64,000 bases of DNA from a virus (lineage: Duplodnaviria; Caudoviricetes): the IMG/VR virus record IMGVR_UViG_3300011008_002712, one strand, 5' to 3'. Shown here piece by piece: positions 24,952 to 59,215 of this stretch (positions within the stretch are counted from its first letter, which is position 1; every line of letters starts with the position of its first letter). The notes below the pieces were generated by a model. That model ran no database searches, was not told the DNA's origin, and saw nothing but the letters and a program-made list of their open reading frames with translations. The position numbers and the translations under genes are program-made.

Positions 24952-25004
24952 TTACCTCTTGATTATATTATACCATGTTGTTCAGTATTTGTAAATAGTT
25001 TTTT
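24952..25004 (-). promoter_or_regulatory. repeated promoter cassette
   Basis: CTATTTACA...ATGGTATAATATAATCAAGAGGTAAGGAA. Confidence 0.85.
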
Positions 25005-25053
25005 CAATTTTTTAGAAGTTTTGTGTTTATCACCTCCTCTCTGTTGTTTCCTT

Positions 25054-25374
25054 TTAAATCTTTATGATGATAGTGTTGTTGATAATGTCAATCATCTGCT
25101 CGTTTTCCTTGTTTGCATAAATCTTGTGGCCGTCGATATCGATTCTCTCGATCGCATATGCATCATTCAAGGACCAAAGTTTTTTCACCGTCGCTTCAGC
25201 ATTGTGTGTATCAAACTCAAGTGAAATGTTCTTGGCGAATGTTTTCTCAACAATCATCCCGTCTTCCATGACAAGAGATTTCACGATATCATTTGCCTGG
25301 AATTCCGAAACATCGGCATTCTCAATAACCTCAACGCGACCAGACTCGAAAATTACCTTAACGTTATATTCCAT
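25054..25374 (-). CDS. hypothetical protein, paralogue of 34613..34942
   Basis: MEYNVKVIFESGR... shared with the second copy. Confidence 0.8.
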   Translation of the reverse strand: MEYNVKVIFESGRVEVIENADVSEFQANDIVKSLVMEDGMIVEKTFAKNISLEFDTHNAEATVKKLWSLNDAYAIERIDIDGHKIYANKENEQMIDIINNTIIIKI

Positions 25375-25401
25375 TTTTTATTCCTCCATTCTTTTATTTC
25401 C

Positions 25402-25455
25402 TTACCTCTTGAATCTATTATACCATGTTATTCAGAGTTTGTAAATAGTTTTTTT
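25402..25455 (-). promoter_or_regulatory. repeated promoter cassette
   Basis: CTATTTACA...ATGGTATAATAGATTCAAGAGGTAAGGAA. Confidence 0.85.
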
Positions 25456-25670
25456 CAGTTTTTATACCCTTTTTCTCTCAATTTCTCTCCGATATATTTC
25501 CGCACTATCTTGGACGGAGTATTCTCAAAGTAGTAGCTCGTACCCTTATAGATTACCACCGCAAGGTCATTCTTTTCGTACTCTTTGCGGATAATATACT
25601 GCATCCTGTCGTTTCCCTCAGCAAGTGCTACAAGTTCTTCTCCGCTCAAGTATTCATATTCATTTGACAT
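25455..25670 (-). CDS. hypothetical protein
   Basis: shares the TGAATGGAGGAATAAAAATG leader with the 24436 gene. Confidence 0.7.
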   Translation of the reverse strand: MSNEYEYLSGEELVALAEGNDRMQYIIRKEYEKNDLAVVIYKGTSYYFENTPSKIVRKYIGEKLREKGYKN

Positions 25671-25706
25671 TTTTATTCCTCCATTCATTTACACTTTTAT
25701 TAAACA

Positions 25707-26006
25707 TCAAATGCACCCACCGCAGCAACCGTATTCTACATTGTCGTTGAATACCTCAGAGATTTCGCTGGCATACTGCTTCAATTCATCTGGCAGATCG
25801 TTTACATCAATTTCCCATTTTCCTTCAGTTACATACGATTCAGACTGATCTTCATCAAAACCGCATCCACCGCCTGTACTCCAAAATTTAATATTCGGTT
25901 TGTTGGTGCCGAAGAAATAGCTCTTGCCGTTAATTTTCAAATGTAAAGTGCCATGGCAGAGACAGGGAAATTTGCCATCATAGCTTACGAATTCTACATG
26001 TTTCAA
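25707..26006 (-). CDS. conserved phage protein ending GCCGGCI
   Basis: YDGKFPCLCHG ... GCCGGC motif. Confidence 0.7.
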   Translation of the reverse strand: MKHVEFVSYDGKFPCLCHGTLHLKINGKSYFFGTNKPNIKFWSTGGGCGFDEDQSESYVTEGKWEIDVNDLPDELKQYASEISEVFNDNVEYGCCGGCI

Positions 26007-26035
26007 TATATATCATCCTTTCTTTTCTCTCTTCC

Positions 26036-26088
26036 TTACTTCTTGAATCTATTATACCATGTTATTCAAGGTTTGTAAATAGTTTTTT
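26036..26088 (-). promoter_or_regulatory. repeated promoter cassette
   Basis: CTATTTACA...ATGGTATAATAGATTCAAGAAGTAAGGAA. Confidence 0.85.
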
Positions 26089-26294
26089 AACAAAAAAGCG
26101 GAGATTTTTCTCCGCTTTTATCACTTCTCATTTTTCGGTTTTTTATGGAATACTCTTGAGTCGTAATTCATATCTTCCAGTTTTGTATTGCTTTTTACAA
26201 TTTTTTCGTATGCTTTTTTCTTTGCCTCCTCATAAGAATTTGCGTTTACTTCAACCATTTTGAAAAAAATTGCTTCTACTTCCCACCTCATTTT

Positions 26295-26618
26295 CTAATC
26301 ACGCCTTTTTGTTATTTTTAACTGTCCGCGTATAGAAATATCACCTCTGTTGATAGAATTGACAAAATCTTCGATATAATAATGTCTTACACCAAAAGAA
26401 GAAAACATAGACCAAATTGATATTTTATAATTTTTGAATGGATCGTATTGAGATGTATCTATCTTACATGGAACTTCAATCTGCTCTTCACTTTCGTCTG
26501 TCCACGAAAAAAATCCTGGAATGTTATGAAGCTTACGCATAGAAGCATTGAATACAATATTTTCAACTCCTTCTTCTTTGATGATTTGAAGAAGCCTTTC
26601 TGATGTCATCCAATTCAT
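26295..26618 (-). CDS. hypothetical protein
   Basis: ORF with GAGGAG SD. Confidence 0.65.
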   Translation of the reverse strand: MNWMTSERLLQIIKEEGVENIVFNASMRKLHNIPGFFSWTDESEEQIEVPCKIDTSQYDPFKNYKISIWSMFSSFGVRHYYIEDFVNSINRGDISIRGQLKITKRRD

Positions 26619-26632
26619 AAACACCTACTCCT

Positions 26633-26794
26633 CTAGAATTTTTCCGGATCGTCTGTGACTCCAGCGATTTTAAATTTGCAGTCTGGACACCTTCCTCCAA
26701 TCTCTACCAAAATTTCATCAAGTTCTTCTCCACAATTTTCACAAATATACATATTGGAATCACTGTCATATAATGCTAAGCAATTCATATTCAT
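26633..26794 (-). CDS. small zinc-ribbon protein
   Basis: 53 aa with CENC and CPDC; AAAGGG SD and promoter upstream; not in the ORF track. Confidence 0.5.
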   Translation of the reverse strand: MNMNCLALYDSDSNMYICENCGEELDEILVEIGGRCPDCKFKIAGVTDDPEKF

Positions 26795-26870
26795 TCCCTT
26801 TCTGTATTTATGTTAGATTATATCATATTGCTATATACTTGTAAATAGATAAATAAAAATTTGCAAATGT

Positions 26871-27689
26871 TTATCCTTTTACTTTTACATCAATTTTTGC
26901 TAAAGATAATTGAATCTGTTTTGTGTTGACATTTTTCTCAAAAACTTCTCTGTATTTGTTCAAAAAGTCATTCAACTCTTTTTCATTATTGCAACGTTTT
27001 GAGTCAATGCGTTCATTTCCTTTTATAATGAAATAAATGTTAGTCGTAAAATCATATGCTACGACATATTCATCATCTTTCATTTGAATCCAATTTGTGG
27101 CGACTAGTTTTCTACTAGAATTGTCGTATAACATATTTTGGACCGGAATCCTGACAAGCTTAATTTGTTTTGAAACTACTGGTTGAAAAAACTTGACTGC
27201 CCACATGAAGCCATTCATTCTAACCATGTAATTGCGTTCATTGTTGTCGATAACAGAAATTTCCAGCTTGTTGAAATCGACGTTACCGTCAAGCAAATTG
27301 GACGTATTTGCTTTGAAAGCATGCGTAAGAATCTTTTTAAATCCGTTGCATGGAATTTCATCCCACTTTAATTCTTCTATCTTGTCAACTTCATATTCAC
27401 AGTCGGCAATCTCAACTGATTTATCATTCTCAATCCTATATCCGATTAAACGGTTTCTTTCAAAAGCAACAACCACAGAACCATTTTCAACAGCAATCAA
27501 TCTTTCTATTCTATTTTTATCTGAAACGCGATTATGAATGTTGAAATCACTTTCCATTATTCTTGAAAATGCATTGCCGAACTTCCTGTTCAAACGAATA
27601 AATTTGAATGATTGATTCTCATTCGTAAGCAAAAACATCGACTTCTCACCATGAAACAACGGGTTTGTTTTAATTCTTTTCAAGATCAT
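26871..27689 (-). CDS. hypothetical protein
   Basis: 272-aa ORF behind a cassette promoter. Confidence 0.75.
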   Translation of the reverse strand: MILKRIKTNPLFHGEKSMFLLTNENQSFKFIRLNRKFGNAFSRIMESDFNIHNRVSDKNRIERLIAVENGSVVVAFERNRLIGYRIENDKSVEIADCEYEVDKIEELKWDEIPCNGFKKILTHAFKANTSNLLDGNVDFNKLEISVIDNNERNYMVRMNGFMWAVKFFQPVVSKQIKLVRIPVQNMLYDNSSRKLVATNWIQMKDDEYVVAYDFTTNIYFIIKGNERIDSKRCNNEKELNDFLNKYREVFEKNVNTKQIQLSLAKIDVKVKG

Positions 27690-27717
27690 GTTTATTCCAT
27701 CCTTTCGCTCTTTTTCC

Positions 27718-27770
27718 TTACCTCTTGAGTCTATTATACCATGTTATTCAACATTTGTAAATAGTTTTTT
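27718..27770 (-). promoter_or_regulatory. repeated promoter cassette
   Basis: CTATTTACA...ATGGTATAATAGACTCAAGAGGTAAGGAA. Confidence 0.85.
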
Positions 27771-27806
27771 CAATTTTTTCGATAAGTTCGAACATTTCGT
27801 AAAAGA

Positions 27807-28994
27807 TTATCCTTTTAATTCCACCAAAGCGTAAATTGTTGCTTGTGCTAGATCATATACAATAAATTCATCGTTTCTCAAATCAGCTCCTTTATGTGCG
27901 TATACACTGTCATAATTTCCTTTTTTCTTAAGCATCTTTTTCCCAAAAGTATAGCACTCAGGAGTATGCTTATAAACATTGTGATATTTTCCAGTATTGA
28001 CTTTAAAAATTGCCATGTATACCGTTTTTGCATTTCCCTTAGTCCAATATCCAGCGCTTGTATATCCAAAACTTTTCCTAGCTTTATTTGCAAAGTATAA
28101 AGATACTTCTTTCGGATCATTGAACATCGCGCCAGTTACTATCGCACCGGAAGGACGATACATCAATCCATTCTGAAGTATGCTCATCCAATTTTCATTT
28201 CGAGAGCCATGCCAGAATAATTTTTCATCCTTATGAATTCCAGTTTGATTTGCAATATGCTCATCATAACGTTTTTGAGTAAAATCATTATTAACATACC
28301 AGCAATTGACATATTTGTCGGAAATTTCTCCAAGCATGTCTTTTACTTTTTCTTCAAGAACATTGTCTTTATTCTTTATTGTCAGGCCAAGAGACTCAAG
28401 AATAGTCTGATTATTTTTTACAGCAATTGCTTTTGTCGCATTTGTATTTACTTTTGCTGCCATGACATCAAGCAAATCTATTTCTTTAGACATAATTTTG
28501 GCAAAATCTTTTGTGCTTTTGGCAAGATAATCTTGCACTTTTTTCATCTTGCGCGGGATTGTAGCAAAAAGCTCCAGAAGAGAAGCATTAAAACTTTCGA
28601 CATCTTTCTTCTTAGAAAGCTCATCCAAGATCGATTGTGCTTCATCAATCATTGTTTGAGTGACTTGTTTGTCAGTGATCTTATAATTGCTTTCAATTGT
28701 TTTGTTCGCAAAATCTTGAAGTTTCCTGATAAGATTAGCAATCACTCTGTCGCTGATCGGTGCATAGTCGCCGGATTCTTCTGCAACTTCTACAATAAGA
28801 TCAGATTTGTCGATATATCCTTTTTTAATTTTTGAGTTATAAATTTTATCCCACTGAGACATTGGCTTGGAAAGGACGGTCTTTGTAGCATCAATACGTC
28901 CATATTCAATAGTAAAAGTATCTCCATTCGGGATCATGTTATAATACTTATTGTTGTTTTTGTCTGTAACCATGACCAAATGAACGGGCTTCAT
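27807..28994 (-). CDS. poly(ADP-ribose) polymerase-like protein (WGR + regulatory + catalytic domains)
   Basis: NNNKYY..EYGRI..KIKKGY (WGR-like), LFATIPRK, FWHGSRNENW.SILQNGL, GAMF..LYFANKARKSFGY, LRNDEFIVY (H-Y-E triad). Confidence 0.9.
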   Translation of the reverse strand: MKPVHLVMVTDKNNNKYYNMIPNGDTFTIEYGRIDATKTVLSKPMSQWDKIYNSKIKKGYIDKSDLIVEVAEESGDYAPISDRVIANLIRKLQDFANKTIESNYKITDKQVTQTMIDEAQSILDELSKKKDVESFNASLLELFATIPRKMKKVQDYLAKSTKDFAKIMSKEIDLLDVMAAKVNTNATKAIAVKNNQTILESLGLTIKNKDNVLEEKVKDMLGEISDKYVNCWYVNNDFTQKRYDEHIANQTGIHKDEKLFWHGSRNENWMSILQNGLMYRPSGAIVTGAMFNDPKEVSLYFANKARKSFGYTSAGYWTKGNAKTVYMAIFKVNTGKYHNVYKHTPECYTFGKKMLKKKGNYDSVYAHKGADLRNDEFIVYDLAQATIYALVELKG

Positions 28995-29021
28995 GTTACA
29001 TCATCCTTTCACTCTTTTTCC

Positions 29022-29073
29022 TTACCTCTTAAATCTATTATACCATGTTGTTCAGCATTTGTAAATAGTTTTT
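29022..29073 (-). promoter_or_regulatory. repeated promoter cassette driving the PARP gene
   Basis: CTATTTACAAATGCTGAACAACATGGTATAATAGATTTAAGAGGTAAGGAA. Confidence 0.85.
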
Positions 29074-29081
29074 GAAACAAA

Positions 29082-29104
29082 AAGAGAGGATTTGCTCCTC
29101 TCTT
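29082..29104. terminator. terminator hairpin
   Basis: AAGAGAGGA-TTTGC-TCCTCTCTT with a T tail on the minus strand. Confidence 0.6.
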
Positions 29105-29122
29105 CATTGTTTTAGGTAGAAT

Positions 29123-31036: not shown

Positions 31037-31065
31037 TGCAATATCTCCTTTCATTTGCATGACAA

Positions 31066-31300
31066 AGGGGAGAATATATTCTCCCCTACATTAAAAGATT
31101 TTTGCGAGAAGTAGATGTAGCCTTGATTCAAATAACTGCCTCAGCAAGCCTTGCAGTTATTTGAATCAAAAAAATATATGAAAAGGAACTTCTTATGCAA
31201 AAACCTAGCGGTGGTTAACCGATCTTCCTGTTTGACAGGAAGAAGTAGGCGGAAGGTAAAATTTATTTTGCGATTATCAAAAAAGGAACCTTCTATGCCA
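31066..31300 (-). ncRNA. putative structured leader/small RNA with two repeated stem motifs
   Basis: two GCATA(A)GAAG(G)TTCC ... CTTC(T)CGC units, a perfect 17-bp hairpin at 31123-31169, a terminal hairpin at 31066-31087, promoter at about 31330-31358. Confidence 0.55.
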
Positions 31301-31388
31301 ATATGAAAAAATTATCAACAATCAATTCTATTTTATCACATAAAATGATTTTGTAAACTGCTTTTTATAAAAATACGAAAATTTTTTG

Positions 31389-34020: not shown

Positions 34021-34479
34021 TTACTTAGTCAACCTGCTCGGATCGAACTTATAGTTCATATTGCCAGAGATGGTTTTATCGACCATGTCCTGATTGATGA
34101 CGCCGGACTTAACAAGTTTTCCCAATTCCTTTTCGTTGACAGTCTCAACCATCTTGCGAGATACAACACTCTTGACATTGGCACCGGCAGCTTCCAGCAA
34201 AACCTTCAGTGCCTTAATATCATACTCTTTCTTTGTCAGCACCGGGATTTTCTTTACCTGGTATTCATTGCCAACAATCGTCTCCGGCACTGCGTTATCT
34301 TCCACGAAATATTCGCCAGCAAATTCTATCTTCATCTTCTTCAGTTTGCTCTGCATCGCTTTGATTTGAGCATCAAGCGACATAATCTCTGCTACGCGAG
34401 AATCGATATCATCCTGCCGTGCCGGAATCTTCTTAGCCTTGATCTGATTTGCTGCCATTGCCATCGTCATTTCAATCAT
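34021..34479 (-). CDS. hypothetical protein (coiled coil)
   Basis: GC-richer 152-aa ORF behind a cassette promoter. Confidence 0.75.
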   Translation of the reverse strand: MIEMTMAMAANQIKAKKIPARQDDIDSRVAEIMSLDAQIKAMQSKLKKMKIEFAGEYFVEDNAVPETIVGNEYQVKKIPVLTKKEYDIKALKVLLEAAGANVKSVVSRKMVETVNEKELGKLVKSGVINQDMVDKTISGNMNYKFDPSRLTK

Positions 34480-34505
34480 CCTTTCATCTTTACACTCTTT
34501 TTTCC

Positions 34506-34559
34506 TTACCTCTTAAATCTATTATACCATGTTGTTCGGTATTTGTAAATAGTTTTTTT
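34506..34559 (-). promoter_or_regulatory. repeated promoter cassette
   Basis: CTATTTACA...ATGGTATAATAGATTTAAGAGGTAAGGAA. Confidence 0.85.
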
Positions 34560-34612
34560 CAATTTTTTTTGAAAAATTTTTGTATTTATCACCTCCTCTC
34601 TATTGCTTCCTT

Positions 34613-34942
34613 TCAAATCTTTATCATGATAGTGTTGTTGATAATGTCAATCATCTGTTCATTTTCTTCGTTTGCATAAACCTTATGCCCGTCGATATCA
34701 ATTCTTTCAATCATATGTGTATCATTTAAAAGTTTTTTCGCTATTGTTTCGGCGTCTGGTGTATCAAACTCAAGCGAAATGTTCTTGGCAAAAGTTTTCT
34801 CAACAATCATGCCATCTTCCATGATAAGGGATTTCGTAATATCATTTGCCTGGAATTTCGAAACTTCAGCACTCTCAATAACTTCGATGCGGCCAGACTC
34901 AAAAATTACCTTGACATTGTATTCCATTTTTTGTTCCTCCAT
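34613..34942 (-). CDS. hypothetical protein, paralogue of 25054..25374
   Basis: near-identical protein and flanks. Confidence 0.8.
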   Translation of the reverse strand: MEEQKMEYNVKVIFESGRIEVIESAEVSKFQANDITKSLIMEDGMIVEKTFAKNISLEFDTPDAETIAKKLLNDTHMIERIDIDGHKVYANEENEQMIDIINNTIMIKI

Positions 34943-34954
34943 TCTTCTATTTCC

Positions 34955-35007
34955 TTACCTCTTGAGTCTATTATACCATGTTATTCAATGTTTGTAAATA
35001 GTTTTTT
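34955..35007 (-). promoter_or_regulatory. repeated promoter cassette
   Basis: CTATTTACA...ATGGTATAATAGACTCAAGAGGTAAGGAA. Confidence 0.85.
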
Positions 35008-35701
35008 ACAAAATTCTTAGTATTTTTTGATAAAGGCAGTGGAATCTTCCATAATTAATATCTTTATGCCAATGACCGAAATACCAACCATCAAATGAGT
35101 CAATATTGTTCAGAAACTCTTGAAGCATCTTAGATGTTGGATCTGGATCTTCTAATGGATTTATATGGAACATTGGGTAAATTAAACCTTGAGGGCATGT
35201 GTGACTTAGAATATAGTCTAATCTGATGTTCTTATTTTTCAGTAATTCCAAATTGGAAAATAATCTATCACATTCATCATAGCTCCAAAGCTCTTCTTTC
35301 CACCAATTAATATCTAATTGACGATAGCATCTGTCATATGATTGTGCTCCCCCAGCAGCTAAAAAATATTTCCCATCTATTTCATAATAATTCCCTCTTA
35401 TTAAATGGATAATATTATCTTCTGTCTGATGAACATCTCCTCCATGCCATTTAGTAATAGGAAAACTATTAATCCACTTAAAATTTTCATGATTTCCGTC
35501 AATCCAGAGCAACGTAAATTTCTTTTCTATCAGCCACTTTCTCCAGTGCTGATAAAACTTATTATCTTTCCAATATAGACCAAAATCTCCCAGAACTATC
35601 ACATAATCACCTCTAGTCATATTTTTCTGCTCTGGGAAATTTTTCATATTCAATTTTTCTATGTCTATGTCAATGTGAGTATCACCAGTAACGTATACCA
35701 T
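35006..35701 (-). CDS. metallophosphoesterase
   Basis: GDTH, LGDFG, DGNHEN, SHTCP, WYFGHWH. Confidence 0.9.
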   Translation of the reverse strand: MVYVTGDTHIDIDIEKLNMKNFPEQKNMTRGDYVIVLGDFGLYWKDNKFYQHWRKWLIEKKFTLLWIDGNHENFKWINSFPITKWHGGDVHQTEDNIIHLIRGNYYEIDGKYFLAAGGAQSYDRCYRQLDINWWKEELWSYDECDRLFSNLELLKNKNIRLDYILSHTCPQGLIYPMFHINPLEDPDPTSKMLQEFLNNIDSFDGWYFGHWHKDINYGRFHCLYQKILRIL

Positions 35702-44815: not shown

Positions 44816-44858
44816 CTCCTATTTATTTTATCACAATTCTCAGAAAATGTAAATAGTT

Positions 44859-48029: not shown

Positions 48030-48300
48030 TTATAATCCTTGCAACAAAATAAGAAAATGGTTAAATTTAGCGCATAAACAATCGCAAACAGAATCAACAT
48101 GTTCGTTGTATGTTATCTTATATGCAAATCCATTTTTTTCATCATAACAAAAAGTCATGAAAGAGCATGAGTCGTTTCTACATATAATTTCAAAAGAATC
48201 TTTATGTATAAAAAAATCGAGAATCGAATAATCGTTTTTTTATTAAATAATTTCTAACGTATAATAATGTTTTTGCTGTTCCTCTCATTAAAAATTTCAT
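48030..48300 (-). pseudogene. frameshifted tandem duplicate of 48305..48607
   Basis: near-identical DNA with an extra base in the homopolymer at about 48240; ends NHFLILLQGL. Confidence 0.7.
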
Positions 48301-48304
48301 AATC

Positions 48305-48607
48305 TTATAATCCTTGCAACAAAATAAGAAAATGGTTAAGTCTAGCGCATAAGCAATCACAAACGGAATCAACATGCCCGTTATATGTTATCTTATATGT
48401 AAATCTATTTTTTTCATCATAGCAAAAAGTCATATAAGGATACGTATCATTTCTACATATAATTTCAAAAGAATCTTTATGTATTAAAGAATCAAGAATC
48501 GTAGAATCTTTATGTATAAAAAAATCAAGAATTGTATAATCGTTTTTTATCAAAAAATTTCTAACATATAATGATGTTTTCGTTGTTCCTCTCATTAAAA
48601 ATTTCAT
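48305..48607 (-). CDS. hypothetical protein with GL tail
   Basis: internal ILD..IHKDS duplication; ends NHFLILLQGL. Confidence 0.65.
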   Translation of the reverse strand: MKFLMRGTTKTSLYVRNFLIKNDYTILDFFIHKDSTILDSLIHKDSFEIICRNDTYPYMTFCYDEKNRFTYKITYNGHVDSVCDCLCARLNHFLILLQGL

Positions 48608-48611
48608 AATC

Positions 48612-49253
48612 TTATAATCCTTCTGTTTTTATCAGAAAATCATTACAATTAATTTTAAAAAAATCTTTTAAAATTTTTTCCATCTTTTTGTTTCCGTATT
48701 TCCCATCTTCCTTGAACCACCACGCAGAAGCTGGATGCACCAAACAATATACATTAAATGCATTTCGTCGCGCATATGTTGCATAAGTCATATAAGATTG
48801 ATAAGCTTTTTTAGATAAGAAAAACACAAGATTAGGCCATATTGCCAACAGTATTGTCAATAAGTTTTCTGCAGCAAAAATGTCTTCTCTGCTATCACGA
48901 AAAATAGTCTTGAAGCTTCCTTTTTGTAAGTTTGGTCTTTGAAAATAATTATAGAATGACGTATACGTAAAAGCTTCTCTATAAGGTATGCCAAAGACAC
49001 TGCCCAAGCATTGAGCTGGGAAACGATAAATTGCATATAATTTTGATGTCTTTTTATTCAAAAATTGATTAACTTGATATGTTGTATTGAATTGATTAGA
49101 AATATGTTCTGGGAATTGTATATGACATGTCGGATCATACCAATCTTTGAATAATTTTTCATCTAAATTCTTATCGATATAATGGCTTTCACCAATTAAA
49201 AGAATTTTAAATTTATCATAATTTTCTCCTATATACGGCTGGATTCTTATCAT
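48612..49253 (-). CDS. uracil-DNA glycosylase-like protein with GL tail
   Basis: PYIGENY, ILLIGESHY, FYNYFQRP and VHPAS motifs of the UDG superfamily. Confidence 0.65.
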   Translation of the reverse strand: MIRIQPYIGENYDKFKILLIGESHYIDKNLDEKLFKDWYDPTCHIQFPEHISNQFNTTYQVNQFLNKKTSKLYAIYRFPAQCLGSVFGIPYREAFTYTSFYNYFQRPNLQKGSFKTIFRDSREDIFAAENLLTILLAIWPNLVFFLSKKAYQSYMTYATYARRNAFNVYCLVHPASAWWFKEDGKYGNKKMEKILKDFFKINCNDFLIKTEGL

Positions 49254-51111: not shown

Positions 51112-51217
51112 TTGAAAGGAGAGGAAAAACCTCTCCTTTTCTTCTAATTAAAAAACAATTTGGCTATTTACATTTTGCATATTTTATGGTAGAATAAATA
51201 CAGAGGTGGATCATTAA

Positions 51218-51670: not shown

Positions 51671-51671
51671 A

Positions 51672-53266: not shown

Positions 53267-53295
53267 TAAAAAAATTTTTCAATTTTTTTAAAAAA

Positions 53296-53340
53296 CTATT
53301 TACAAATACGTCATTGTGTGATAATATAGACTCAAGAGGT
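53296..53340 (+). promoter_or_regulatory. repeated promoter cassette with no gene behind it
   Basis: CTATTTACA...TAATATAGACTCAAGAGGT, followed within about 50 bp by a second cassette. Confidence 0.7.
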
Positions 53341-53388
53341 GAGGAAAAAGAAAAAGTTGATAAAAACTCAAAAAAAAAATGAAAAAAA

Positions 53389-53435
53389 CTATTTACAAAT
53401 GGCGAACAACATGGTATAATCTAATCAAGAGGTAA
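53389..53435 (+). promoter_or_regulatory. repeated promoter cassette
   Basis: CTATTTACA...ATGGTATAATCTAATCAAGAGGTAA. Confidence 0.85.
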
Positions 53436-53469
53436 ACAAAAACGGTAAAAATGAAAGGGGAAGATTGAC

Positions 53470-54423
53470 ATGGCTGCAAACTTTGAGAGTGGATTTGTTG
53501 TGAGAGAACCTGCATGGCACGGATTGGCAACGGTCATCAATGAGGCACCCACATCTGCGGATGCTCTTCGTATCGCTGGTCTTGATTGGAAGGTCCTTGT
53601 TGGAGATGCGTTCCTTCAGACTCAGGACGGCAAGATGGTCAAGACGGATCGCAAGATTACTTACCGCGACAGCGATGGTTCGGTTCTCGGATTTGTGTCT
53701 GACAAGTATTCGGTTGTCCAGAATGATGAAGCATTCTCATTCACCGACGAGCTGATTGCTACTGGCGAAGTTACTTACGAGAGTGCTGGTTCGCTGGATG
53801 GTGGTAAGAAAGTCTTCATGCTGGCGAATCTGCCGGAGACCAGCATCCTTGGAGATGCAGTTGTTCCCTACATGCTCTTCAGCAACAGCCATGATGGCAG
53901 TTCATCTGTGAGAGTAACAGCCACTCCTGTGAGAGTTGTCTGCGAAAATACGATGAATGCTGCCTTGCAGGGTGCAAAGAGAATCTGGTCCTTTGTACAT
54001 CGTGGCAATATCGACGAGAAGATTCATGAAGCGCAGGTTACTCTCCGCAACATGAAGGAGTACATGACCGAGCTGAACAAGGACGCAGAGCGCCTGGCAA
54101 AGATTACCATTTCTCCTTCCCAGATGCAGGATTATCTCAACAACATGTTCCCCATCGATGAGAACGATGACAATATCACCAAGCGGCGGGCAAAGAACAT
54201 GATCTATCTTCGTGAGATGTTTATGGGAAGATACAATGTCGACGATCTCGGAAATTTCCGTGGGACAGCTTGGGGACTTCTCAACGCAGCAAGCGATTTC
54301 ATCGGACATGTTCAGCCGGTACGCAAGACAAAGAATCACCAGGAAAAAGTAATGGAAGGATGGATGAACGGCAATAAATTCTTCGATACGACATACGATT
54401 ATATCAACTCTGTAGCAGCCTAA
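53470..54423 (+). CDS. DUF932 phage/plasmid-like protein
   Basis: REPAWHGL, AGLDW, YSVVQN.EAF, ESAGSL.GGK, NSHDGS, TPVRVVCENT, GTAWG. Confidence 0.9.
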   Translation: MAANFESGFVVREPAWHGLATVINEAPTSADALRIAGLDWKVLVGDAFLQTQDGKMVKTDRKITYRDSDGSVLGFVSDKYSVVQNDEAFSFTDELIATGEVTYESAGSLDGGKKVFMLANLPETSILGDAVVPYMLFSNSHDGSSSVRVTATPVRVVCENTMNAALQGAKRIWSFVHRGNIDEKIHEAQVTLRNMKEYMTELNKDAERLAKITISPSQMQDYLNNMFPIDENDDNITKRRAKNMIYLREMFMGRYNVDDLGNFRGTAWGLLNAASDFIGHVQPVRKTKNHQEKVMEGWMNGNKFFDTTYDYINSVAA

Positions 54424-54433
54424 CAAAAAAGAC

Positions 54434-54459
54434 GAGGAGAGGCATCAAAACCTCTCCTC
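54434..54459. terminator. terminator hairpin
   Basis: GAGGAGAGG-loop-CCTCTCCTC after the DUF932 stop. Confidence 0.6.
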
Positions 54460-54593
54460 ATGAAAGGAGGATTTATCTAATATAATAAAATTAGAGACAA
54501 GTTTGTTCTGAATGAAATGGTGGAGAAAAAAATCTCCACCATTAATTCTTTTAGTTTGATTTTACATGAAGCATAAAATGTTTTAAAATTAAA

Positions 54594-55178
54594 ATGGAGG
54601 TGATAAAAATAATAGAAATTATTTGTACAATATGTGGTTTGATTCAGGGGTTGTTAATTCTTTTAAAGAGAAAAGAAAATTGGATTTTTTATTTGCTAAA
54701 CATTTCAACTCTTATTATTTATTCATTTTGCGCACATCTTTATGGAGATGTTATAGAAAATTGCATATATCTTACTATTGGAATTTTCGGAACATTCGCT
54801 TGGATGAATAATAAATTCGCTAAAAGATTCAATACTGAAAAAATTAGACACGCATCTAAAAATGAAAACATTGTCTTTCTTTTGGCAATATTAATTTTGT
54901 CAGCAATTACATACTGCTTGATTTTTAACAGCAATGACCCTCTTCCTTCCATGGATTCTATAACTACTGGGATGGGTTTTGTTGCTACTTTTATGATGGC
55001 ATGTAAAATTATAGAAACATGGATTGTGTGGTTTATTGATGACATTTTAATGTTATGTGTATATTTATCTTTACCAGAACCTGGATATGCATTAGCAATG
55101 TTGAATTTTGTTTGGATTTTTATGGCAATAGGAAGCTACATATCTTGGAAAAAGGAGATAGAATATGAAGAAGTATAA
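54594..55178 (+). CDS. pnuC: PnuC-family nicotinamide riboside/vitamin transporter
   Basis: multi-TM; ENWIF, LYGD, DP.P.MDSITT, K.IETWIVWFIDDI, GSYISWKK. Confidence 0.8.
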   Translation: MEVIKIIEIICTICGLIQGLLILLKRKENWIFYLLNISTLIIYSFCAHLYGDVIENCIYLTIGIFGTFAWMNNKFAKRFNTEKIRHASKNENIVFLLAILILSAITYCLIFNSNDPLPSMDSITTGMGFVATFMMACKIIETWIVWFIDDILMLCVYLSLPEPGYALAMLNFVWIFMAIGSYISWKKEIEYEEV

Positions 55179-55995
55179 AGAGCTGGAAATCATTTTACCA
55201 TCATTTGATTGTGATAAACATTGCCCATATTGCACTGCTAAAACAACAAAATGGCCAGAGAAAAAAATATCAGTTGAAAAACTAAAAACATATATTAACA
55301 AAATGAGAGATAGTTTTTCATTTGTTTATCTTACTCTTGGTGGAAATGGTGAACCAACATTATATCCATTAGATACATTAGAAAAAATTGTAAAAATATT
55401 TGATGGTTATGACATTCCAATCAAAAGAGTCTTAACATCTGGAAACATTTTTAGAGACGAATCAAAAGCAAAACATGAAATGTTTATGAAACATGGATGG
55501 AAATTTGAAATAACTGCAGCATATACAAATATTGAAAATGATATGAAAGTTCTTGGATACGATCACAAATATTATCTTTCGGAAAGATTTAAAAAATCTC
55601 CAATAATGTTAAATTATGTTATGTTGAAGAATAATTTTGACATGATAATTGATGAAATTAATTATTGGGCAAATCATTTTAAAAACATCGAAACGATTTC
55701 ATGTAAATTACTGAATGTGAACACAAGAGAAAATGGCGAAAATAATCCAATTTCAAAATGGATTATTAAAAACGCAATACCAAAAACAGATAGAGAAAAA
55801 ATAAAAAATTTGCTAGATAAAAATTTTTATTTTATCAATCATGAATTTGATGCATTAAATTATAAGCATCCATCTGGAACTAACATTCATTTTTCTTGGA
55901 AAAATGGCACATATGGAATGCACGATCTTGTGTGGTATTGTGACGAATTTGTAGATTACCATTTGAATCACGTCGATCCGTTTGGAGGTAATTAA
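55165..55995 (+). CDS. radical SAM protein
   Basis: CxxxCxxC (CDKHCPYC) and GGNGEPTL; overlaps the pnuC stop. Confidence 0.85.
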   Translation: MKKYKELEIILPSFDCDKHCPYCTAKTTKWPEKKISVEKLKTYINKMRDSFSFVYLTLGGNGEPTLYPLDTLEKIVKIFDGYDIPIKRVLTSGNIFRDESKAKHEMFMKHGWKFEITAAYTNIENDMKVLGYDHKYYLSERFKKSPIMLNYVMLKNNFDMIIDEINYWANHFKNIETISCKLLNVNTRENGENNPISKWIIKNAIPKTDREKIKNLLDKNFYFINHEFDALNYKHPSGTNIHFSWKNGTYGMHDLVWYCDEFVDYHLNHVDPFGGN

Positions 55996-55997
55996 TC

Positions 55998-56507
55998 ATG
56001 AATGTGTACATTGGAGGAAGTTTTTATAAAAATGGTAATTCGTTGAACGATGATTTCAGAGCAGAACTTCTCGGATGAGAACATATTTTATGGAACGAAA
56101 ATGAAGATGCTAAAGTAACTATCTTTGGAAAAGAAATGAAATATATTGGCCCGTTTTTCTATTATCCAAAAAAAGAAAAAGAATTGAAAAAAAATGGAAT
56201 GAAAGATCATGAAATAATTGTGCATATTGAAAAAAAAGCAATAGAAGAATGTAATTTATTTGTCGCTTATTTAGGAACAAAATCTTCTCTAGGTACTGTA
56301 GCCGAACTAATTCATGCAGCAAATTTTGGAAAAAACATATGTTTGTTTTATCTTGCTGGGAAAAATGAGAAAGCATTAAAATCTGAATATTGGTTTCCCA
56401 TTATCATGGCAAGAGAAATAGCGAAAGATAAACATTCAAAATTTATTATGAAAGAAGTAGATAATGCTAGCGAGTTTATTTATTTTTTAAAAAATAACAC
56501 GTTTTAA
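55998..56507 (+). CDS. nucleoside 2-deoxyribosyltransferase-like protein, in-frame TGA at 56076
   Basis: MNVYIGGSF start after a GGAGGT SD; YIGPFF, AIEECNLFVAYL...SLGTVAELIHA..FGK.I. Confidence 0.65.
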
Positions 56508-56512
56508 AGAAG

Positions 56513-57169
56513 GTGAAACTTATGATATGGTTGTTATATTTTCCTTTGATGTGTATCATCATGGTTGTATGTTATCTAACTAATCCCATTGTTGTTCTAT
56601 TCTGTGACGAAAATGGAGAACTTCCTGGATTTTTAAAGTATTGGCAGACGTGGGATGATTCTTGTGACAGCAGATATATGATGACATCTGTTATTCCAAA
56701 GTCCAAGCTATTGTCATGGTTAGATTATGGATGGGCTGAAAAGTACGATTGGTACTATGATGATTCAGACGGACTAAAAGAACTTGGATGCATCAGAGAA
56801 AGAACAAAATTAAAAGATGGTGTTAGTTTTTCTGTAGCTGAAAGATTCAAGCGATATGTCTGCAGAACACTTTGGCTTACAAGGAATTGCGCTTATGGAT
56901 TTGCATTTTGGGTATTTGGTCGTGATGGAAAAATTGAAGACCTTGTATTCCACAAACGTATAGAAGAATCTGAATTCAATGAACATGTAGATGTAAGAGA
57001 AGATAAAGAAAGACTTTCTACTCGTAAATGGTCTCTTAGATTCTACAAACATGTAGTAGGTCCTTTGTATATTACAGGCTATCTTGGATGGAAGATACCA
57101 TTCTGGAAAGAATCTGGAAAGTATCATGCAATGATTGCTAATCGAATCGTGCCTCGGTTCAAATTATAA
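56513..57169 (+). CDS. phage membrane-anchored hypothetical protein
   Basis: N-terminal TM; LPGFLKYWQTWDD, WLTRNCAYGF, YLGWKI. Confidence 0.7.
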   Translation: MKLMIWLLYFPLMCIIMVVCYLTNPIVVLFCDENGELPGFLKYWQTWDDSCDSRYMMTSVIPKSKLLSWLDYGWAEKYDWYYDDSDGLKELGCIRERTKLKDGVSFSVAERFKRYVCRTLWLTRNCAYGFAFWVFGRDGKIEDLVFHKRIEESEFNEHVDVREDKERLSTRKWSLRFYKHVVGPLYITGYLGWKIPFWKESGKYHAMIANRIVPRFKL

Positions 57170-57180
57170 AATGCCTATAA

Positions 57181-57200
57181 AGGAGAGAATTTTCTCTCCT
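57181..57200 (+). terminator. intrinsic terminator
   Basis: AGGAGAGA-ATTT-TCTCTCCT plus T run. Confidence 0.7.
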
Positions 57201-57359
57201 TTTTTGATTTATTTGAAAAAATGTCATCTCCAGAACCTTGACAGGTGTATCGTATGAGCAAACGTATAGATTTATATTGACATTAAAAAAATAATCATCA
57301 GAGTGCATATTCTACATAGAACCTTATCGTGAAAGGATTTGTATGATTTTTTGAATATG

Positions 57360-57410
57360 CTATTTACATTTATGTTATTCTATGGTAGAATAGAATCAAG
57401 AGGTAAGGAA
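57360..57410 (+). promoter_or_regulatory. repeated promoter cassette
   Basis: CTATTTACA...ATGGTAGAATAGAATCAAGAGGTAAGGAA. Confidence 0.85.
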
Positions 57411-57423
57411 GGAGTGGATATAA

Positions 57424-57750
57424 ATGAAGGGTGTATCTTCTAAGAATTTCAGCGTATTTAATCGTGATAAAGTGTTGACGTCTGAATATAGTTTGATCAC
57501 CGTAGATCGTGACTGGGCTGAAATGCCAAAAATTAGATGCATGACGAATCCCAAGACCAAACGCATTGAGCAGATTCGCACAATGCTTATAACATCTGAG
57601 CGTACTGGCGCCACTACAATCTGGCACTTCAGCAATAGAATCAATGATAACAATGGTGAATTTTTTTACGATGAATTCATTCCGTCAAACAAAACATTGA
57701 AAGATTTTCCGCAGTTGAAAGGATATATCTTGATGATATATAATGATTAA
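57424..57750 (+). CDS. hypothetical protein, paralogue of 58728..59045
   Basis: MKGVSS...ITS..TG...(Y/F)ND shared. Confidence 0.75.
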   Translation: MKGVSSKNFSVFNRDKVLTSEYSLITVDRDWAEMPKIRCMTNPKTKRIEQIRTMLITSERTGATTIWHFSNRINDNNGEFFYDEFIPSNKTLKDFPQLKGYILMIYND

Positions 57751-57813
57751 ATTTTATTTACAATTGATTAATGTCGTGGTATAATTTGATCAAAAGTTTA
57801 TGAGGTTAAGAAT

Positions 57814-57984
57814 ATGACAGTCAGAGAATTATACGAATGGGCAAAGAAGAATAACGCATTGGATTTTGACATAGAAATTCAACACCGTGATGGTGGAGGC
57901 TATTATGCAGGAGTAGATGACTGTGATCCTGAAATCTGCTACGGAGAAGAATCTTATCATACTGAAAAAGTTGTATTGCTTTAA
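57814..57984 (+). CDS. small hypothetical protein
   Basis: 56 aa MTVRELYEWAKKN...; own promoter and GAGGT SD; not in the ORF track. Confidence 0.6.
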   Translation: MTVRELYEWAKKNNALDFDIEIQHRDGGGYYAGVDDCDPEICYGEESYHTEKVVLL

Positions 57985-58044
57985 ATAATGCTGAATAACA
58001 TGGTAGAATAGACTCAAGATGTAAAAGAGTGTAAAAATGAAAGG

Positions 58045-58542
58045 ATGATTGAAATGTTGGATATGCACAACGAATATTTCCGTAATATGAAGCTTTTGCT
58101 TTGTGACTGGCAGAAGAAAAAGGATGACATTTTCCAAAAGAAGAAGGAAATTATCTATAAATTTGGTTATGACAGCAAAGAATATGAAGCTTGGTACGAT
58201 GAGAACAAGGCATCGATTTTCCCTTTCTCTTCAGGCGCAAGTAAAGCATATCACGCATACAACAAGAGTGTCGAAATGAAGCAGAAGTACCTCACTATTG
58301 ACACGGCTCTCATTGCAGAAGAGGTGAAAGATTTTATCGACACACTTCGTACTGCAGGTATCGAGAGTTTTGTATACACCAGTTCTTCCAGCTCTGCAAT
58401 GGAAAACATGCATGACCTTGCAGCAAATGGATGCACCATGGTCGATTTGTTCACGGTTGAATCGTATAGTAACAAAACGGGACAACAATGCCAGAAATTG
58501 TCAAAGGCGTTCGTTTTATCATCGACTAATATTGAAACATAA
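58045..58542 (+). CDS. conserved Firmicutes mobile-element protein (3' end probably frameshifted)
   Basis: FP.S.GASKAY, DFIDTLRTAGI..FVYT..SS.AMENMH; the alternative frame gives a PEIVKGVRFIID end. Confidence 0.7.
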   Translation: MIEMLDMHNEYFRNMKLLLCDWQKKKDDIFQKKKEIIYKFGYDSKEYEAWYDENKASIFPFSSGASKAYHAYNKSVEMKQKYLTIDTALIAEEVKDFIDTLRTAGIESFVYTSSSSSAMENMHDLAANGCTMVDLFTVESYSNKTGQQCQKLSKAFVLSSTNIET

Positions 58543-58649
58543 CACAAAAGAGGAGACAAATATCTCCTCTTTTTTACGTATATAAATCCATTTATGTTTG
58601 CACAAAGGCGTTCTGTCAAGGCCTGATGAGGAAAAATTTTTTTGAATAG

Positions 58650-58694
58650 CTATTTACATTTCTGTTATTCTATGGTAGAATAGAATCAAGAGGT
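58650..58694 (+). promoter_or_regulatory. repeated promoter cassette
   Basis: CTATTTACA...ATGGTAGAATAGAATCAAGAGGT. Confidence 0.85.
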
Positions 58695-58727
58695 GGAAAG
58701 GTAAGGAAATGAAAGGAGCAGATAAGT

Positions 58728-59045
58728 ATGAAAGGTGTATCTTCCAACATTTTCACAGTGAACAATTCTAAAAAGAGTTTGGTGGCTGAGATGTCTACAA
58801 TCGCCTGCGACCCGAATTTCAACGAAATGCAAAAGACAAGGATCAATGAAAATTCTCAAATAAATGAAATCTTGGTAATCACTTCTCATAAGACTGGTGT
58901 CAATGCAATCTTTGACCATGTCAAGACAGAAAGAGACTTTGCTGGCGAAGGTGAAATACTTTACATGGTGTACGAACCTTCTCCTGATACCCTCCGGCGG
59001 TTGCCAAACCTGGCAGGATATACAGTGACAGTTTTCAACGACTAA
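58728..59045 (+). CDS. hypothetical protein, paralogue of 57424..57750
   Basis: MKGVSS start, AAAGGAG SD. Confidence 0.75.
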   Translation: MKGVSSNIFTVNNSKKSLVAEMSTIACDPNFNEMQKTRINENSQINEILVITSHKTGVNAIFDHVKTERDFAGEGEILYMVYEPSPDTLRRLPNLAGYTVTVFND

Positions 59046-59059
59046 AAAAATCAAAAAAA

Positions 59060-59150
59060 CTATTTACATTTGAGTTATTCTATGGTAGAATAGAATCAAG
59101 AGGTAAGGAAGGAATAGAGAGGAGGTGATAAACACAAAAGTTTTTCAAAA
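59060..59150 (+). promoter_or_regulatory. empty promoter cassette (promoter plus orphan SD tail)
   Basis: ...TCAAGAGGTAAGGAAGGAATAGAGAGGAGGTGATAAACACAAA with no ATG-initiated ORF. Confidence 0.75.
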
Positions 59151-59165
59151 AAATTTTCGAACAGG

Positions 59166-59215
59166 CTATTTACAATAGCTAAAGAATATGGTATAATCTA
59201 ATCAAGAGGTAAGGC
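59166..59215 (+). promoter_or_regulatory. repeated promoter cassette
   Basis: CTATTTACA...ATGGTATAATCTAATCAAGAGGTAAGG. Confidence 0.85.

What the first reader, a model, noticed from the sequence alone, without database searches (positions are those of the whole stretch)
24952..59215. Filled and empty versions of the same cassette slot, with AAGGAA direct repeats at the gene boundaries
At 25.0-25.4 kb and 34.6-35.0 kb the order is promoter-TCAAGAGGT[AAGGAA]-leader-106-aa gene-stop-[AAGGAA]rcaayAGAGAGGAGGTGATAAAYACAAAA-next promoter. At 59060-59165 the same flanks are joined directly: TCAAGAGGT[AAGGAA]GGAATAGAGAGGAGGTGATAAACACAAAA-next promoter. That is the product expected from precise loss, or the state before insertion, of the gene at the 6-bp repeat. 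53296-53389 is another gene-less tandem promoter. Leaders are also shared between unrelated genes (24915/25670; 34479/58045). This suggests an integron-like gene capture and shuffling scheme with no integrase visible in the window.
Basis: partly seen in the sequence, partly recalled or inferred. Interest (0 to 1): 0.7.

Follow-up and report, generated by a model that had tools for sequence, protein, structure and literature searches.

The report
Repeated promoter cassettes shuffle phage genes
In a 416-kb phage genome, dozens of near-identical promoter-plus-leader cassettes sit in front of small genes of unknown function; the "filled" and "empty" slots are real, but they fit ordinary recombination among these repeats, as already described for T4-type phages, better than an integron-like capture system.

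Summary
A 24-nt block (AGAGAGGAGGTGATAAAYACAAAA) occurs exactly three times in the 416,024-bp virus genome. Two copies follow the stop codons of two paralogous small genes ("A"). The third directly follows a promoter's transcribed box at 59.1 kb.

The integron-like reading is not supported.
- The two filled sites are one duplicated module, so they count as a single event.
- The genome has no tyrosine integrase, and it does have a RecA-like recombinase.
- Each gene has its own promoter.
- In relatives (~95% and more distant), gene-module gains and losses have junctions at many different places. These include 77-100-bp promoter repeats, the 24-nt block itself, a shared ribosome-binding leader, 7- and 14-bp microhomologies, and sites with no homology.
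- The "empty" tandem promoter is conserved at the same site in a distant relative, while the closest relative has lost the first promoter's core.

This is a PeSL-like regulatory-cassette architecture (Arbiol et al. 2010), here in a large low-GC phage whose host I infer to be a Firmicute.

The block is a start-codon-less, 10-11-nt perfect Shine-Dalgarno sequence. It may be a STAB-SD-type mRNA stabiliser or a relic; this is untested.

Earlier notes of this scan describe the same cassettes on this genome only, not on other DNA.

The parts
25378..25466 (-). Promoter/leader cassette of gene A1: A-rich upstream tract, -35 and extended -10 at 25417-25448, then the transcribed box TCAAGAGGTAAGGAA and an SD leader
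   Evidence: repeat family D1, 12 copies
25054..25374 (-). Gene A1, 106 aa, ORFan
   Evidence: no Pfam or PHROG hit; homologues only in related phage contigs
25019..25053 (-). AAGGAA (25048-25053) plus the start-less strong Shine-Dalgarno block (25019-25042) after the A1 stop
24928..25016 (-). Promoter/leader cassette of gene B1 (promoter 24967-24998); its leader is shared with gene C
24436..24918 (-). Gene B1 (160 aa from the ATG); the orthologue in the relative carries the other (B2/B3-type) leader
   Evidence: (phrog_10980, unknown function)
34931..35019 (-). Promoter/leader cassette of gene A2 (promoter 34970-35001)
34613..34927 (-). Gene A2, 104 aa, paralogue of A1 (82% aa)
34578..34612 (-). 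AAGGAA (34607-34612) plus the start-less SD block (34578-34601) after the A2 stop
34482..34570 (-). Promoter/leader cassette of gene B2 (promoter 34521-34552); its leader and first codons MIEM are shared with B3
34021..34479 (-). Gene B2 (152 aa), unrelated to B1 and B3
58728..59045 (+). Gene D (105 aa), paralogue of E (57424-57750); a third paralogue D' sits between A1 and B1 in relatives
59046..59110 (+). P1, the gene-less first promoter of the tandem pair (59060-59091), with the transcribed box at 59096-59110. It is the same subtype as the E and D promoters. Its 54-bp core (59051-59104) is absent in the closest relative.
59116..59139 (+). Start-less strong SD block between P1 and P2; the core AGGAGGTGATA is invariant in the window, L009 and L006
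59145..59216 (+). P2, the promoter of gene F (59166-59197), plus its transcribed box
59250..60047 (+). Gene F (262-265 aa depending on the ATG chosen), ORFan
53296..53420 (+). Second gene-less tandem promoter pair (53296-53327 and 53389-53420), with a diverged copy of the spacer block, upstream of the DUF932 gene. A distant relative has one chimeric promoter here.
58045..58542 (+). Gene B3 (DUF7698). It shares the B2-type leader. In the window its promoter lacks the upstream tract and -35 that the relative has.

Best explanation
The window is a hyperplastic, probably early-expressed region of a 416-kb low-GC phage. About 34 copies of one regulatory cassette sit in front of single small genes, most of them ORFans. 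Each cassette has an A-rich upstream tract, CTATTTACA (-35), a 17-nt spacer, an extended -10 (TGnTATAAT), often the transcribed box TCAAGAGGTAAGGAA, and one of a few stock SD leaders.

Because these 20-100-bp sequences recur in direct orientation, general recombination between them duplicates, deletes, moves and re-heads gene modules. Short-homology and illegitimate events add to this. The genome encodes a RecA-like protein that could drive the homologous part.

The two filled slots are one module (promoter, A, block, promoter) that was duplicated. The empty slot is a tandem promoter whose spacer is the transcribed box plus a strong Shine-Dalgarno sequence with no start codon. That block travels with the downstream promoter, and what lies upstream of it varies.

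AAGGAA is the tail of the transcribed box, not a recombination core site.

Shown here: the anatomy, the copy numbers, the polymorphisms and their junctions. Inferred: promoter activity, early timing, a Firmicute host, and the recombination mechanism.
For: 1. Cassette family. There are 16 exact matches against 0 expected, 34 loose matches in the window and 88 in the genome, concentrated at genome positions 280-360 kb.

2. The closest relative (L002 and L009, one contig, 94.5-95.7% identity) differs by whole modules.
- A 1179-bp block of three genes is flanked by 77-bp promoter repeats at 86% identity.
- A 427-bp D' module is flanked by repeats of block plus promoter. Window 24947-25049 matches both L002 19610-19712 and L002 20035-20137.
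- A 567-bp indel is flanked by an exact 14-bp repeat that covers a start codon.
- A 275-bp indel is flanked by AATTCTA.
- The 164-bp and 54-bp indels have no flanking repeat.
- Two 20-21-bp indels add or remove an upstream tract and -35.

3. L004 joins the remnant of gene I directly to A through the shared SD leader, without gene C or its promoter.

4. The B1 orthologues carry different stock leaders.

5. L006 has one chimeric promoter where the window has the 53.3-kb tandem pair.

6. The arrangement P1, SD block, P2, F is conserved in L006 and L007, where F is 65% identical at the protein level. L009 keeps the box and the block but lacks the P1 core. Relics of the box (L009) and of the -35 (L002, after D') score above shuffles: 0 of 500 and 2 of 500 shuffles reach them.

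7. Recombination genes. RecA family at 269 bits. No Phage_integrase and no RecT. One small resolvase lies about 200 kb away.

8. The window's arrangement at 24.6-44.9 kb is reproduced base for base in an independent assembly (L003).
Against: - The A junction itself does lie exactly at AAGGAA on both sides. AAGGAA directly after a stop codon is uncommon (3 of 95 genes).
- No promoter relic can be shown statistically in the 3' end of A (136 and 261 of 500 shuffles reach the score). How A came to abut the block is therefore unresolved.
- No empty allele of an A site was found in any relative.
- Only one close relative lineage and a few fragments were available. Directions of events (gain or loss) are mostly not polarised.
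- About half of the larger indels are not flanked by cassettes, so cassettes are not the only route.
- Promoter activity and timing are untested.
Confidence: 0.78

Rival explanations
1. Integron-like, site-specific capture. A dedicated recombinase inserts and excises gene cassettes precisely at the 6-bp AAGGAA repeat, and the empty slot is the product or substrate of that reaction.
For: Removing leader, A and stop between the two AAGGAA copies formally recreates the empty-site sequence. AAGGAA directly after a stop codon is uncommon.
Against: - There is one independent junction only, because A1 and A2 are one duplicated module.
- Junctions in relatives are scattered.
- No tyrosine integrase is found. 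The only serine recombinase is about 200 kb away.
- There is no attC-like hairpin.
- Every gene has its own promoter.
- The empty site has a different promoter subtype and different neighbours.
- The empty arrangement is conserved at its own locus in L006 and L007.
Confidence: 0.03
2. The 24-nt block is a functional RNA element. It would be a strong Shine-Dalgarno sequence without a start codon that holds a 30S subunit or ribosome near the 5' end of P1 transcripts, or on read-through transcripts after gene A. That would protect downstream mRNA from 5'-to-3' decay, like STAB-SD of cryIIIA or the phage SP82 polypurine stabiliser. On this view the tandem promoter with the block is a selected architecture. 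This complements the main explanation rather than replacing it.
For: - The block has a 10-11-nt perfect complement to the 16S rRNA 3' end. No ATG, GTG or TTG opening 30 or more codons lies 4-13 nt downstream.
- The core AGGAGGTGATA is invariant between the window, L009 and L006, while the flanking spacer has diverged.
- It is 23 of 24 identical between the A1 and A2 copies, against 85% for the module as a whole.
- It is retained when the P1 core is lost.
- It is predicted to be largely unpaired.
- It lies about 20-32 nt from the inferred P1 start site.
- A review states that in Bacilli a strong SD, even without an initiation codon, stabilises downstream RNA (PMC3997798).
- A fourth intergenic start-less SD (14-nt match) follows B1 at 24415.
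Against: - There are no expression or half-life data.
- The host is unknown, and a Firmicute host with RNase J is only inferred.
- In the two A sites the block is not near a 5' end.
- A more distant relative (L011) has a single promoter and no such block upstream of F.
- Copies could be kept alike by gene conversion rather than by selection.
Confidence: 0.3
3. The block is a relic. It would be the leader and ribosome-binding site of a gene that was deleted, left stranded between two promoters and then copied around with the downstream promoter, with no function of its own.
For: - The window shows this process directly. The 67-aa gene present in L009 and L006 is reduced in the window to its SD (GAAAGGAGG, near 54462) plus a 5' fragment. 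A 10-bp deletion removed the start codon and a 164-bp deletion removed the body.
- The same SD followed by a TTG start is a working ribosome-binding site at 44820.
- Diverged copies of the block at 53356, and at about 5.8 kb beyond the window's end, have weaker SDs.
Against: An 11-nt invariant core at a locus where F has diverged to 65% protein identity is unexpected for neutral sequence. The block is also retained through several independent upstream deletions.
Confidence: 0.35
4. The block acts at the DNA level, as an operator or far-upstream element of the downstream promoter (about -60 to -85). It would be bound by a phage or host regulator, so that B1, B2 and F are co-regulated.
For: The block always lies 45-55 nt upstream of a -35, whatever precedes it. 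The motif GGTGA(T/A)(A/C)AAAC recurs in the spacer blocks of three tandem promoters.
Against: There is no dyad symmetry. Only five copies exist in the genome. No regulator has been identified. The conserved core is exactly the anti-16S sequence, which points to RNA.
Confidence: 0.1

Closest known systems
PeSL (promoter-early stem-loop) mobile regulatory cassettes of T4-type phages (Arbiol et al. 2010, PMC2839356; Comeau et al. 2014, PMC4122927)
   Same: - A repeated motif of about 100 bp: an AT-rich tract, a strong sigma70-type promoter, then an SD and start codon.
- Dozens of copies, clustered in hyperplastic regions in front of ORFans.
- Genes that differ between close relatives are flanked by cassettes, and chimeric cassettes remain after loss.
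- General recombination is the proposed mechanism, not a dedicated enzyme.
   Different: - A different phage lineage: a 416-kb low-GC phage with Gram-positive-style promoters and SDs.
- A terminator stem-loop precedes only about 12 of 34 cassettes, so it is not part of the unit.
- There is an extra conserved transcribed box and a small set of interchangeable leaders that include the first codons.
- There are gene-less tandem promoters with a start-less SD.
- Mini-circles were not tested.
Host-takeover module of Bacillus phage SPO1 (Stewart et al. 1998, as cited in PMC6873191)
   Same: A cluster of small early genes, each or each pair with promoters and ribosome-binding sites typical of highly expressed genes.
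   Different: The SPO1 module is about 12 kb with 26 genes. No role of its promoters in gene shuffling has been described, to my knowledge. The proteins here show no detected homology to it, though this was not searched specifically.
STAB-SD of cryIIIA and the phage SP82 polypurine 5' stabiliser (Agaisse and Lereclus 1996; Hue et al. 1995; reviewed in PMC3997798)
   Same: A strong Shine-Dalgarno sequence in an untranslated leader with no associated start codon. At the P1 sites it lies near the transcript's 5' end.
   Different: Function is untested here. Two of the copies lie after a gene rather than near a 5' end. The host's RNase set is unknown.
Integron gene cassettes
   Same: A linear array of single-gene units with recurring boundary sequences, and a formally filled or empty slot.
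   Different: There is no IntI, no attC hairpins and no common Pc promoter. Each unit has its own promoter, and junctions are not at one core site.
Morons of lambdoid phages (Hendrix and colleagues; from my own knowledge)
   Same: Autonomous units of promoter plus gene (with or without a terminator), present or absent between conserved neighbours.
   Different: Morons do not share one repeated promoter cassette that itself provides the recombination homology.

Membership tests
Integron | IntI-type tyrosine recombinase encoded next to the array | tested here: not met
   PF00589 gives no match in the 416-kb genome, while the control genomes all match
Integron | attC site (imperfect inverted repeat forming a hairpin) at the 3' end of each cassette | tested here: not met
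   The block after gene A has no inverted repeat and folds weakly. The alignment of 11 copies shows no paired arms.
Integron | Promoterless cassettes expressed from one common promoter | tested here: not met
   Each gene has its own promoter cassette
Integron | All cassette junctions at one conserved core site | tested here: not met
   Junctions in relatives lie at six or more different kinds of position
PeSL-type mobile regulatory cassette | Repeated strong sigma70-like promoter with an AT-rich upstream tract, ending in an SD and start codon | tested here: met
   16 exact and 34 loose copies, with consensus -35, extended -10, A-tract and SD leaders. Promoter activity was not tested.
PeSL-type mobile regulatory cassette | Stem-loop (terminator or attenuator) as a constituent of the motif | tested here: not met
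   A strong hairpin plus T-run lies directly upstream of only about 12 of 34 cassettes. None is present at the A1, A2, B1, B2 or P1/P2 cassettes.
PeSL-type mobile regulatory cassette | Concentrated in hyperplastic regions, upstream of ORFans | tested here: met
   Genome distribution peaks at 280-360 kb. A, C, D, E, F and I have no family match.
PeSL-type mobile regulatory cassette | Genes that differ between close relatives are flanked by cassettes, and loss leaves a chimeric cassette | tested here: met
   The 1179-bp and 427-bp modules are flanked by 77-100-bp cassette repeats. L006 has a single chimeric promoter. Other indels are not cassette-flanked.
PeSL-type mobile regulatory cassette | Excised mini-circles | not testable with these tools
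   Needs reads or PCR
STAB-SD-type 5' mRNA stabiliser | Strong complementarity to the 16S rRNA 3' end with no start codon at initiation distance | tested here: met
   A 10-nt match (11 with the conserved A) and no ATG, GTG or TTG opening 30 or more codons 4-13 nt downstream, at 25038, 34597 and 59120
STAB-SD-type 5' mRNA stabiliser | Located in the 5' untranslated leader of the stabilised transcript | tested here: inconclusive
   True for the P1 sites if the start site is as inferred (about 20-32 nt from the 5' end). Not true for the two copies after gene A.
STAB-SD-type 5' mRNA stabiliser | Increases mRNA half-life through 30S or ribosome binding | not testable with these tools
   Needs half-life and toeprint assays

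The most novel reading that the evidence does not exclude
The gene-less unit (promoter, transcribed box, start-less perfect Shine-Dalgarno, second promoter) is a selected expression device of this phage group. It would be a ribosome-docking 5' stabiliser that is kept even when the first promoter decays. Together with a small set of interchangeable leaders that include the first codons, it would form a plug-in platform into which new genes land and are expressed at once.
Probability: 0.25. Interest if true: 0.55.

Novelty: new variant of a known kind. Interest (0 to 1): 0.35.

Why it matters
If this is right, modular shuffling through repeated regulatory cassettes is not peculiar to T4-type phages of Gram-negative hosts. 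PeSLs are so far the worked example of that mechanism. It would also operate in a very large phage of a different lineage, with a different cassette anatomy: no obligatory stem-loop, a conserved transcribed box, and swappable leaders.

That helps explain how huge phages accumulate and turn over ORFans while keeping them expressed.

The conserved start-less Shine-Dalgarno sequence between tandem promoters is a small, directly testable candidate for a phage mRNA-stabilising element.

For the scan, the main value is negative. There is no new recombination system here.

Tried and rejected
- Public phage records. Megablast of window 24-36 kb and tblastn of gene A against the phage collection found nothing.
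- IMG/VR scans with gene A peptides, the promoter-plus-box pattern and the 24-nt block gave no relative. The single pattern hit (L001) has no such promoters and is a chance match.
- The genome search with the gapped promoter pattern on the window's own genome returned 0 matches, although the matches exist. I treated this as a tool limitation and redid the search in Python.
- The genome search cannot reach the ENA contigs behind L002 and L003. I reached the 59-kb region of the relative through 90%-identity cluster members instead.
- Several related contigs gave gene tables but no DNA.
- Rfam found no family in the window.
- I tested whether the 3' end of gene A, or of the 122-aa gene in L002, hides a decayed promoter. 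The scores are not above shuffles, so I dropped that claim for those two sites.
- Hue et al. 1995 could not be read. It is cited only through the review.
- Assembly artefact was considered. Window 24.6-44.9 kb is identical in an independent assembly. The 59-kb site is colinear with L009 apart from the 54-bp indel.

Full report
**What the window is.** The window is the minus strand of positions 287,998-351,997 of a single 416,024-bp virus record. The record has about 29% G+C and no N. Genes run on the minus strand up to about 49.6 kb and on the plus strand after it. Annotated products include UvrD-type helicase, AAA ATPase, a PARP-like protein, NAPRTase, an NMN transporter, a radical-SAM protein, DUF932 and a metallophosphoesterase. 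These sit among many small proteins with no family. Promoter and Shine-Dalgarno style point to a Firmicute-type host. That is an inference; the host was not identified.

A pattern of CTATTTACAA, 14-20 nt, then TATAAT gives 16 exact matches in the window against 0 in 100 shuffles. A looser pattern gives 34 cassettes in the window and 88 in the genome, concentrated at genome positions 280-360 kb. The cassette has these parts:
- an A-rich upstream tract;
- CTATTTACA, which holds the -35 TTTACA;
- a 17-nt spacer that is itself conserved;
- an extended -10 (TGnTATAAT);
- in 17 of the 34, the box TCAAGAGGTAAGGAA at about the transcription start;
- a purine-rich leader with an SD.

The 24-nt block AGAGAGGAGGTGATAAAYACAAAA occurs three times in the whole genome and nowhere else, even allowing four mismatches. 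The copies are at 25019-25042 and 34578-34601 on the minus strand, each 11 nt after the stop of a copy of gene A, and at 59116-59139 on the plus strand, 5 nt after the box of a promoter. AAGGAA abuts both A stop codons.

Leaders are shared between unrelated genes. B1 and C share one type. B2 and B3 share another, including the codons MIEM. B1, B2 and B3 show no similarity to each other.

**Three qualifications.**
- A1 and A2 are paralogues (82% aa) inside one duplicated module of about 470 bp (25008-25474 against 34567-35027, 85% nt identity). The module runs from A's promoter through the block into the next promoter. The two filled junctions are therefore a single historical event.
- The first promoter of the empty site belongs to the subtype that drives the paralogous genes E and D. 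It is not the subtype in front of A.
- The neighbours differ (D and F, against C/G and B1/B2). The empty site is an analogue of the filled sites, not an allele.

**Relatives.** Public phage records and IMG/VR gave nothing. Protein searches with A, F and D, together with 90%-identity cluster members, led to metagenomic contigs.
- L003 is 100% identical to window 24,613-44,927. It is the same phage in an independent assembly.
- L002 and L009 are two stretches of one 166-kb contig. They are 94.5% and 95.7% identical to the window and cover 24.8-44.3 kb and 52.2-64 kb.
- L005 (570 bp) and a contig without DNA share L002's gene order.
- L004 is a rearranged fragment at about 80% identity.
- L006 and L007 are more distant (F 65% aa) and L011-L013 more distant still (F 50%).

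**Where the junctions lie.** Window against the L002/L009 contig:
1. Three extra genes (1179 bp) in L002 sit between gene G and A2's promoter. They are flanked by 77-bp promoter-cassette repeats at 86% identity.
2. A D' module (427 bp; its own promoter plus a 100-aa paralogue of D) sits between A1 and B1 in L002, in L005 and in a third contig. Window 24947-25049 (block plus promoter) matches both flanks of the insert. The 3' tails of the two block copies show that the crossover lay inside the 24-nt block, not at AAGGAA.
3. A 567-bp stretch is present only in the window. It is flanked by an exact 14-bp repeat that begins with a start codon.
4. A 275-bp stretch (a 107-aa gene) is present only in the window. 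It is flanked by AATTCTA.
5. A 67-aa gene present in L009 and L006 is reduced in the window to its SD and a 5' fragment. A 10-bp deletion removed the start codon and a 164-bp deletion removed the body. Neither has a flanking repeat.
6. The 54-bp core of P1 (59051-59104) is absent in L009. There the stop of D is followed by G, then 14 of the 15 nt of the box, then the block.
7. Two 20-21-bp indels remove or add an upstream tract and -35. One is at the H promoter and one at the B3 promoter.

Further cases:
- L004 joins the remnant of gene I to A through the ~19-nt SD leader that C and A share. It lacks C and A's promoter, and it fuses A's 3' end to the NAPRTase gene.
- The B1 orthologue in L002 carries the B2/B3-type leader with extra N-terminal codons.
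- L006 has one promoter in front of DUF932. Its 5' half resembles the window's first tandem promoter and its leader resembles the second. This is what unequal exchange between the 93-bp-spaced pair would produce.

Junctions are therefore scattered over every repeated regulatory element and beyond.

**The empty slot in evolution.** In L006 and L007 the D-like gene is followed by a promoter, a diverged spacer that still contains AGGAGGTGATA, a second promoter and then F. In a three-way alignment that 11-mer is invariant, like the -35 and -10 elements, while the surrounding spacer has diverged. L009 has lost the P1 core. The copy behind D' in L002 keeps only a relic of P1's upstream tract and -35. 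Both relics score above shuffles, with 0 of 500 and 2 of 500 shuffles reaching them.

L011, more distant, has a single promoter and no block.

The tandem arrangement is thus old within a subclade. Its first promoter is repeatedly lost and the block is retained. Genome-wide, five copies of the spacer block exist. Three lie between tandem promoters (53.3 kb, 59.1 kb, and one about 5.8 kb beyond the window's end). Two lie behind gene A.

Gene A can therefore be described as sitting inside such a tandem unit. How it got there is unresolved. I could not show a promoter relic in its 3' end.

**Recombination genes.** The genome has no Phage_integrase match and no RecT. It has one 217-aa resolvase about 200 kb away and a clear RecA-family gene at 269 bits.

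**What the block may be.** It is a 10-11-nt perfect complement of the 16S rRNA 3' end. No start codon opening an ORF lies 4-13 nt downstream. It is predicted to be mostly unpaired. The same SD followed by a TTG start is a real ribosome-binding site at 44820.

In Bacilli, a strong SD without an initiation codon stabilises downstream RNA. The examples are STAB-SD and the SP82 polypurine element (PMC3997798). I give that reading about 0.3.

The relic reading gets about 0.35. It has a direct precedent in the window, the stranded SD of the decayed 67-aa gene. A DNA-level operator gets about 0.1.

**Comparison with known systems.** The closest match is the PeSL cassette of T4-type phages. These are repeated units of about 100 bp (AT-rich tract, strong promoter, SD), clustered in hyperplastic regions in front of ORFans. 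Differential genes between near-identical phages are flanked by PeSLs, and exchange is attributed to recombination between them (PMC2839356; PMC4122927).

Here the stem-loop that defines a PeSL is present at only about a third of cassettes. There are also extra features: the transcribed box, the stock leaders and the gene-less tandem promoters. I therefore call it PeSL-like in how it works, not a member of the family. Functionally the region also resembles the SPO1 host-takeover module (PMC6873191). All four integron criteria that could be tested failed.

**Verdict.** One small testable novelty remains, the conserved start-less Shine-Dalgarno sequence between tandem promoters.

Earlier notes of this scan describe the same cassettes on this genome. 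A look-up by sequence found nothing on other DNA.

Noticed in passing
window 59204-59249; L006 2985-3040; L011 425-455: The leader of gene F starts with a 5'-terminal hairpin whose stem changes by compensatory substitutions in three lineages: AGAGG/CCTCT, AGAGCTG/CAGCTCT and AGCTG/CAGCT. The loop is similar in all three. In the window and L006 it is followed by a conserved ATGTGA (a start codon directly followed by a stop). It looks like a conserved 5' RNA element.
   Followed up: partly
window 24402-24415 (minus strand): The longest Shine-Dalgarno match in the genome (14 nt, AGAAAGGAGGTGAT) lies at the stop of gene B1. No start codon opening an ORF lies 4-13 nt downstream, and the next gene starts about 95 nt further on. 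This is another start-less strong SD after a gene in the same region.
   Followed up: no
window 54440-54516: Remnant of a 67-aa gene that is intact in L009 and L006. In the window the SD and a 5' fragment remain. The start codon was lost in a 10-bp deletion and the body in a 164-bp deletion.
   Followed up: yes
about 5.7-6.7 kb beyond the window's end (extended window coordinates 69770-70700; genome about 281.3-282.2 kb): Three tandem cassette promoters are followed by a GC-richer stretch that looks poor in ORFs. The first spacer is a diverged copy of the block. The lead came from earlier notes; I only read the sequence.
   Followed up: partly
L004 1040-1094 against window 25069 and 23750-23795: In a rearranged relative, the 3' end of gene A is joined to the 5' region of the NAPRTase gene. 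B1, the block and several other genes are absent. This is either a real deletion fusing two genes or a short-contig artefact.
   Followed up: partly
window 19873-20566 and 48030-48622: Two tandem duplications of small genes (79% and 87-93% nt identity). They show further local gene duplication that is independent of the promoter cassettes.
   Followed up: no
window 22585-23805, 27807-28994, 54594-55178: The region holds a group of NAD-related genes: NAPRTase, a PARP-family ADP-ribosyltransferase-like protein and an NMN-transporter-like protein. The Pfam marks come from related contigs. They might serve NAD salvage during infection.
   Followed up: no
window 57744-57764 and 57987: The window and its 95% relative differ reciprocally in whether the promoters of genes H and B3 have an upstream tract and -35. 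The indels are 21 bp and 20 bp. Promoters seem to be switched on or off by small indels.
   Followed up: partly
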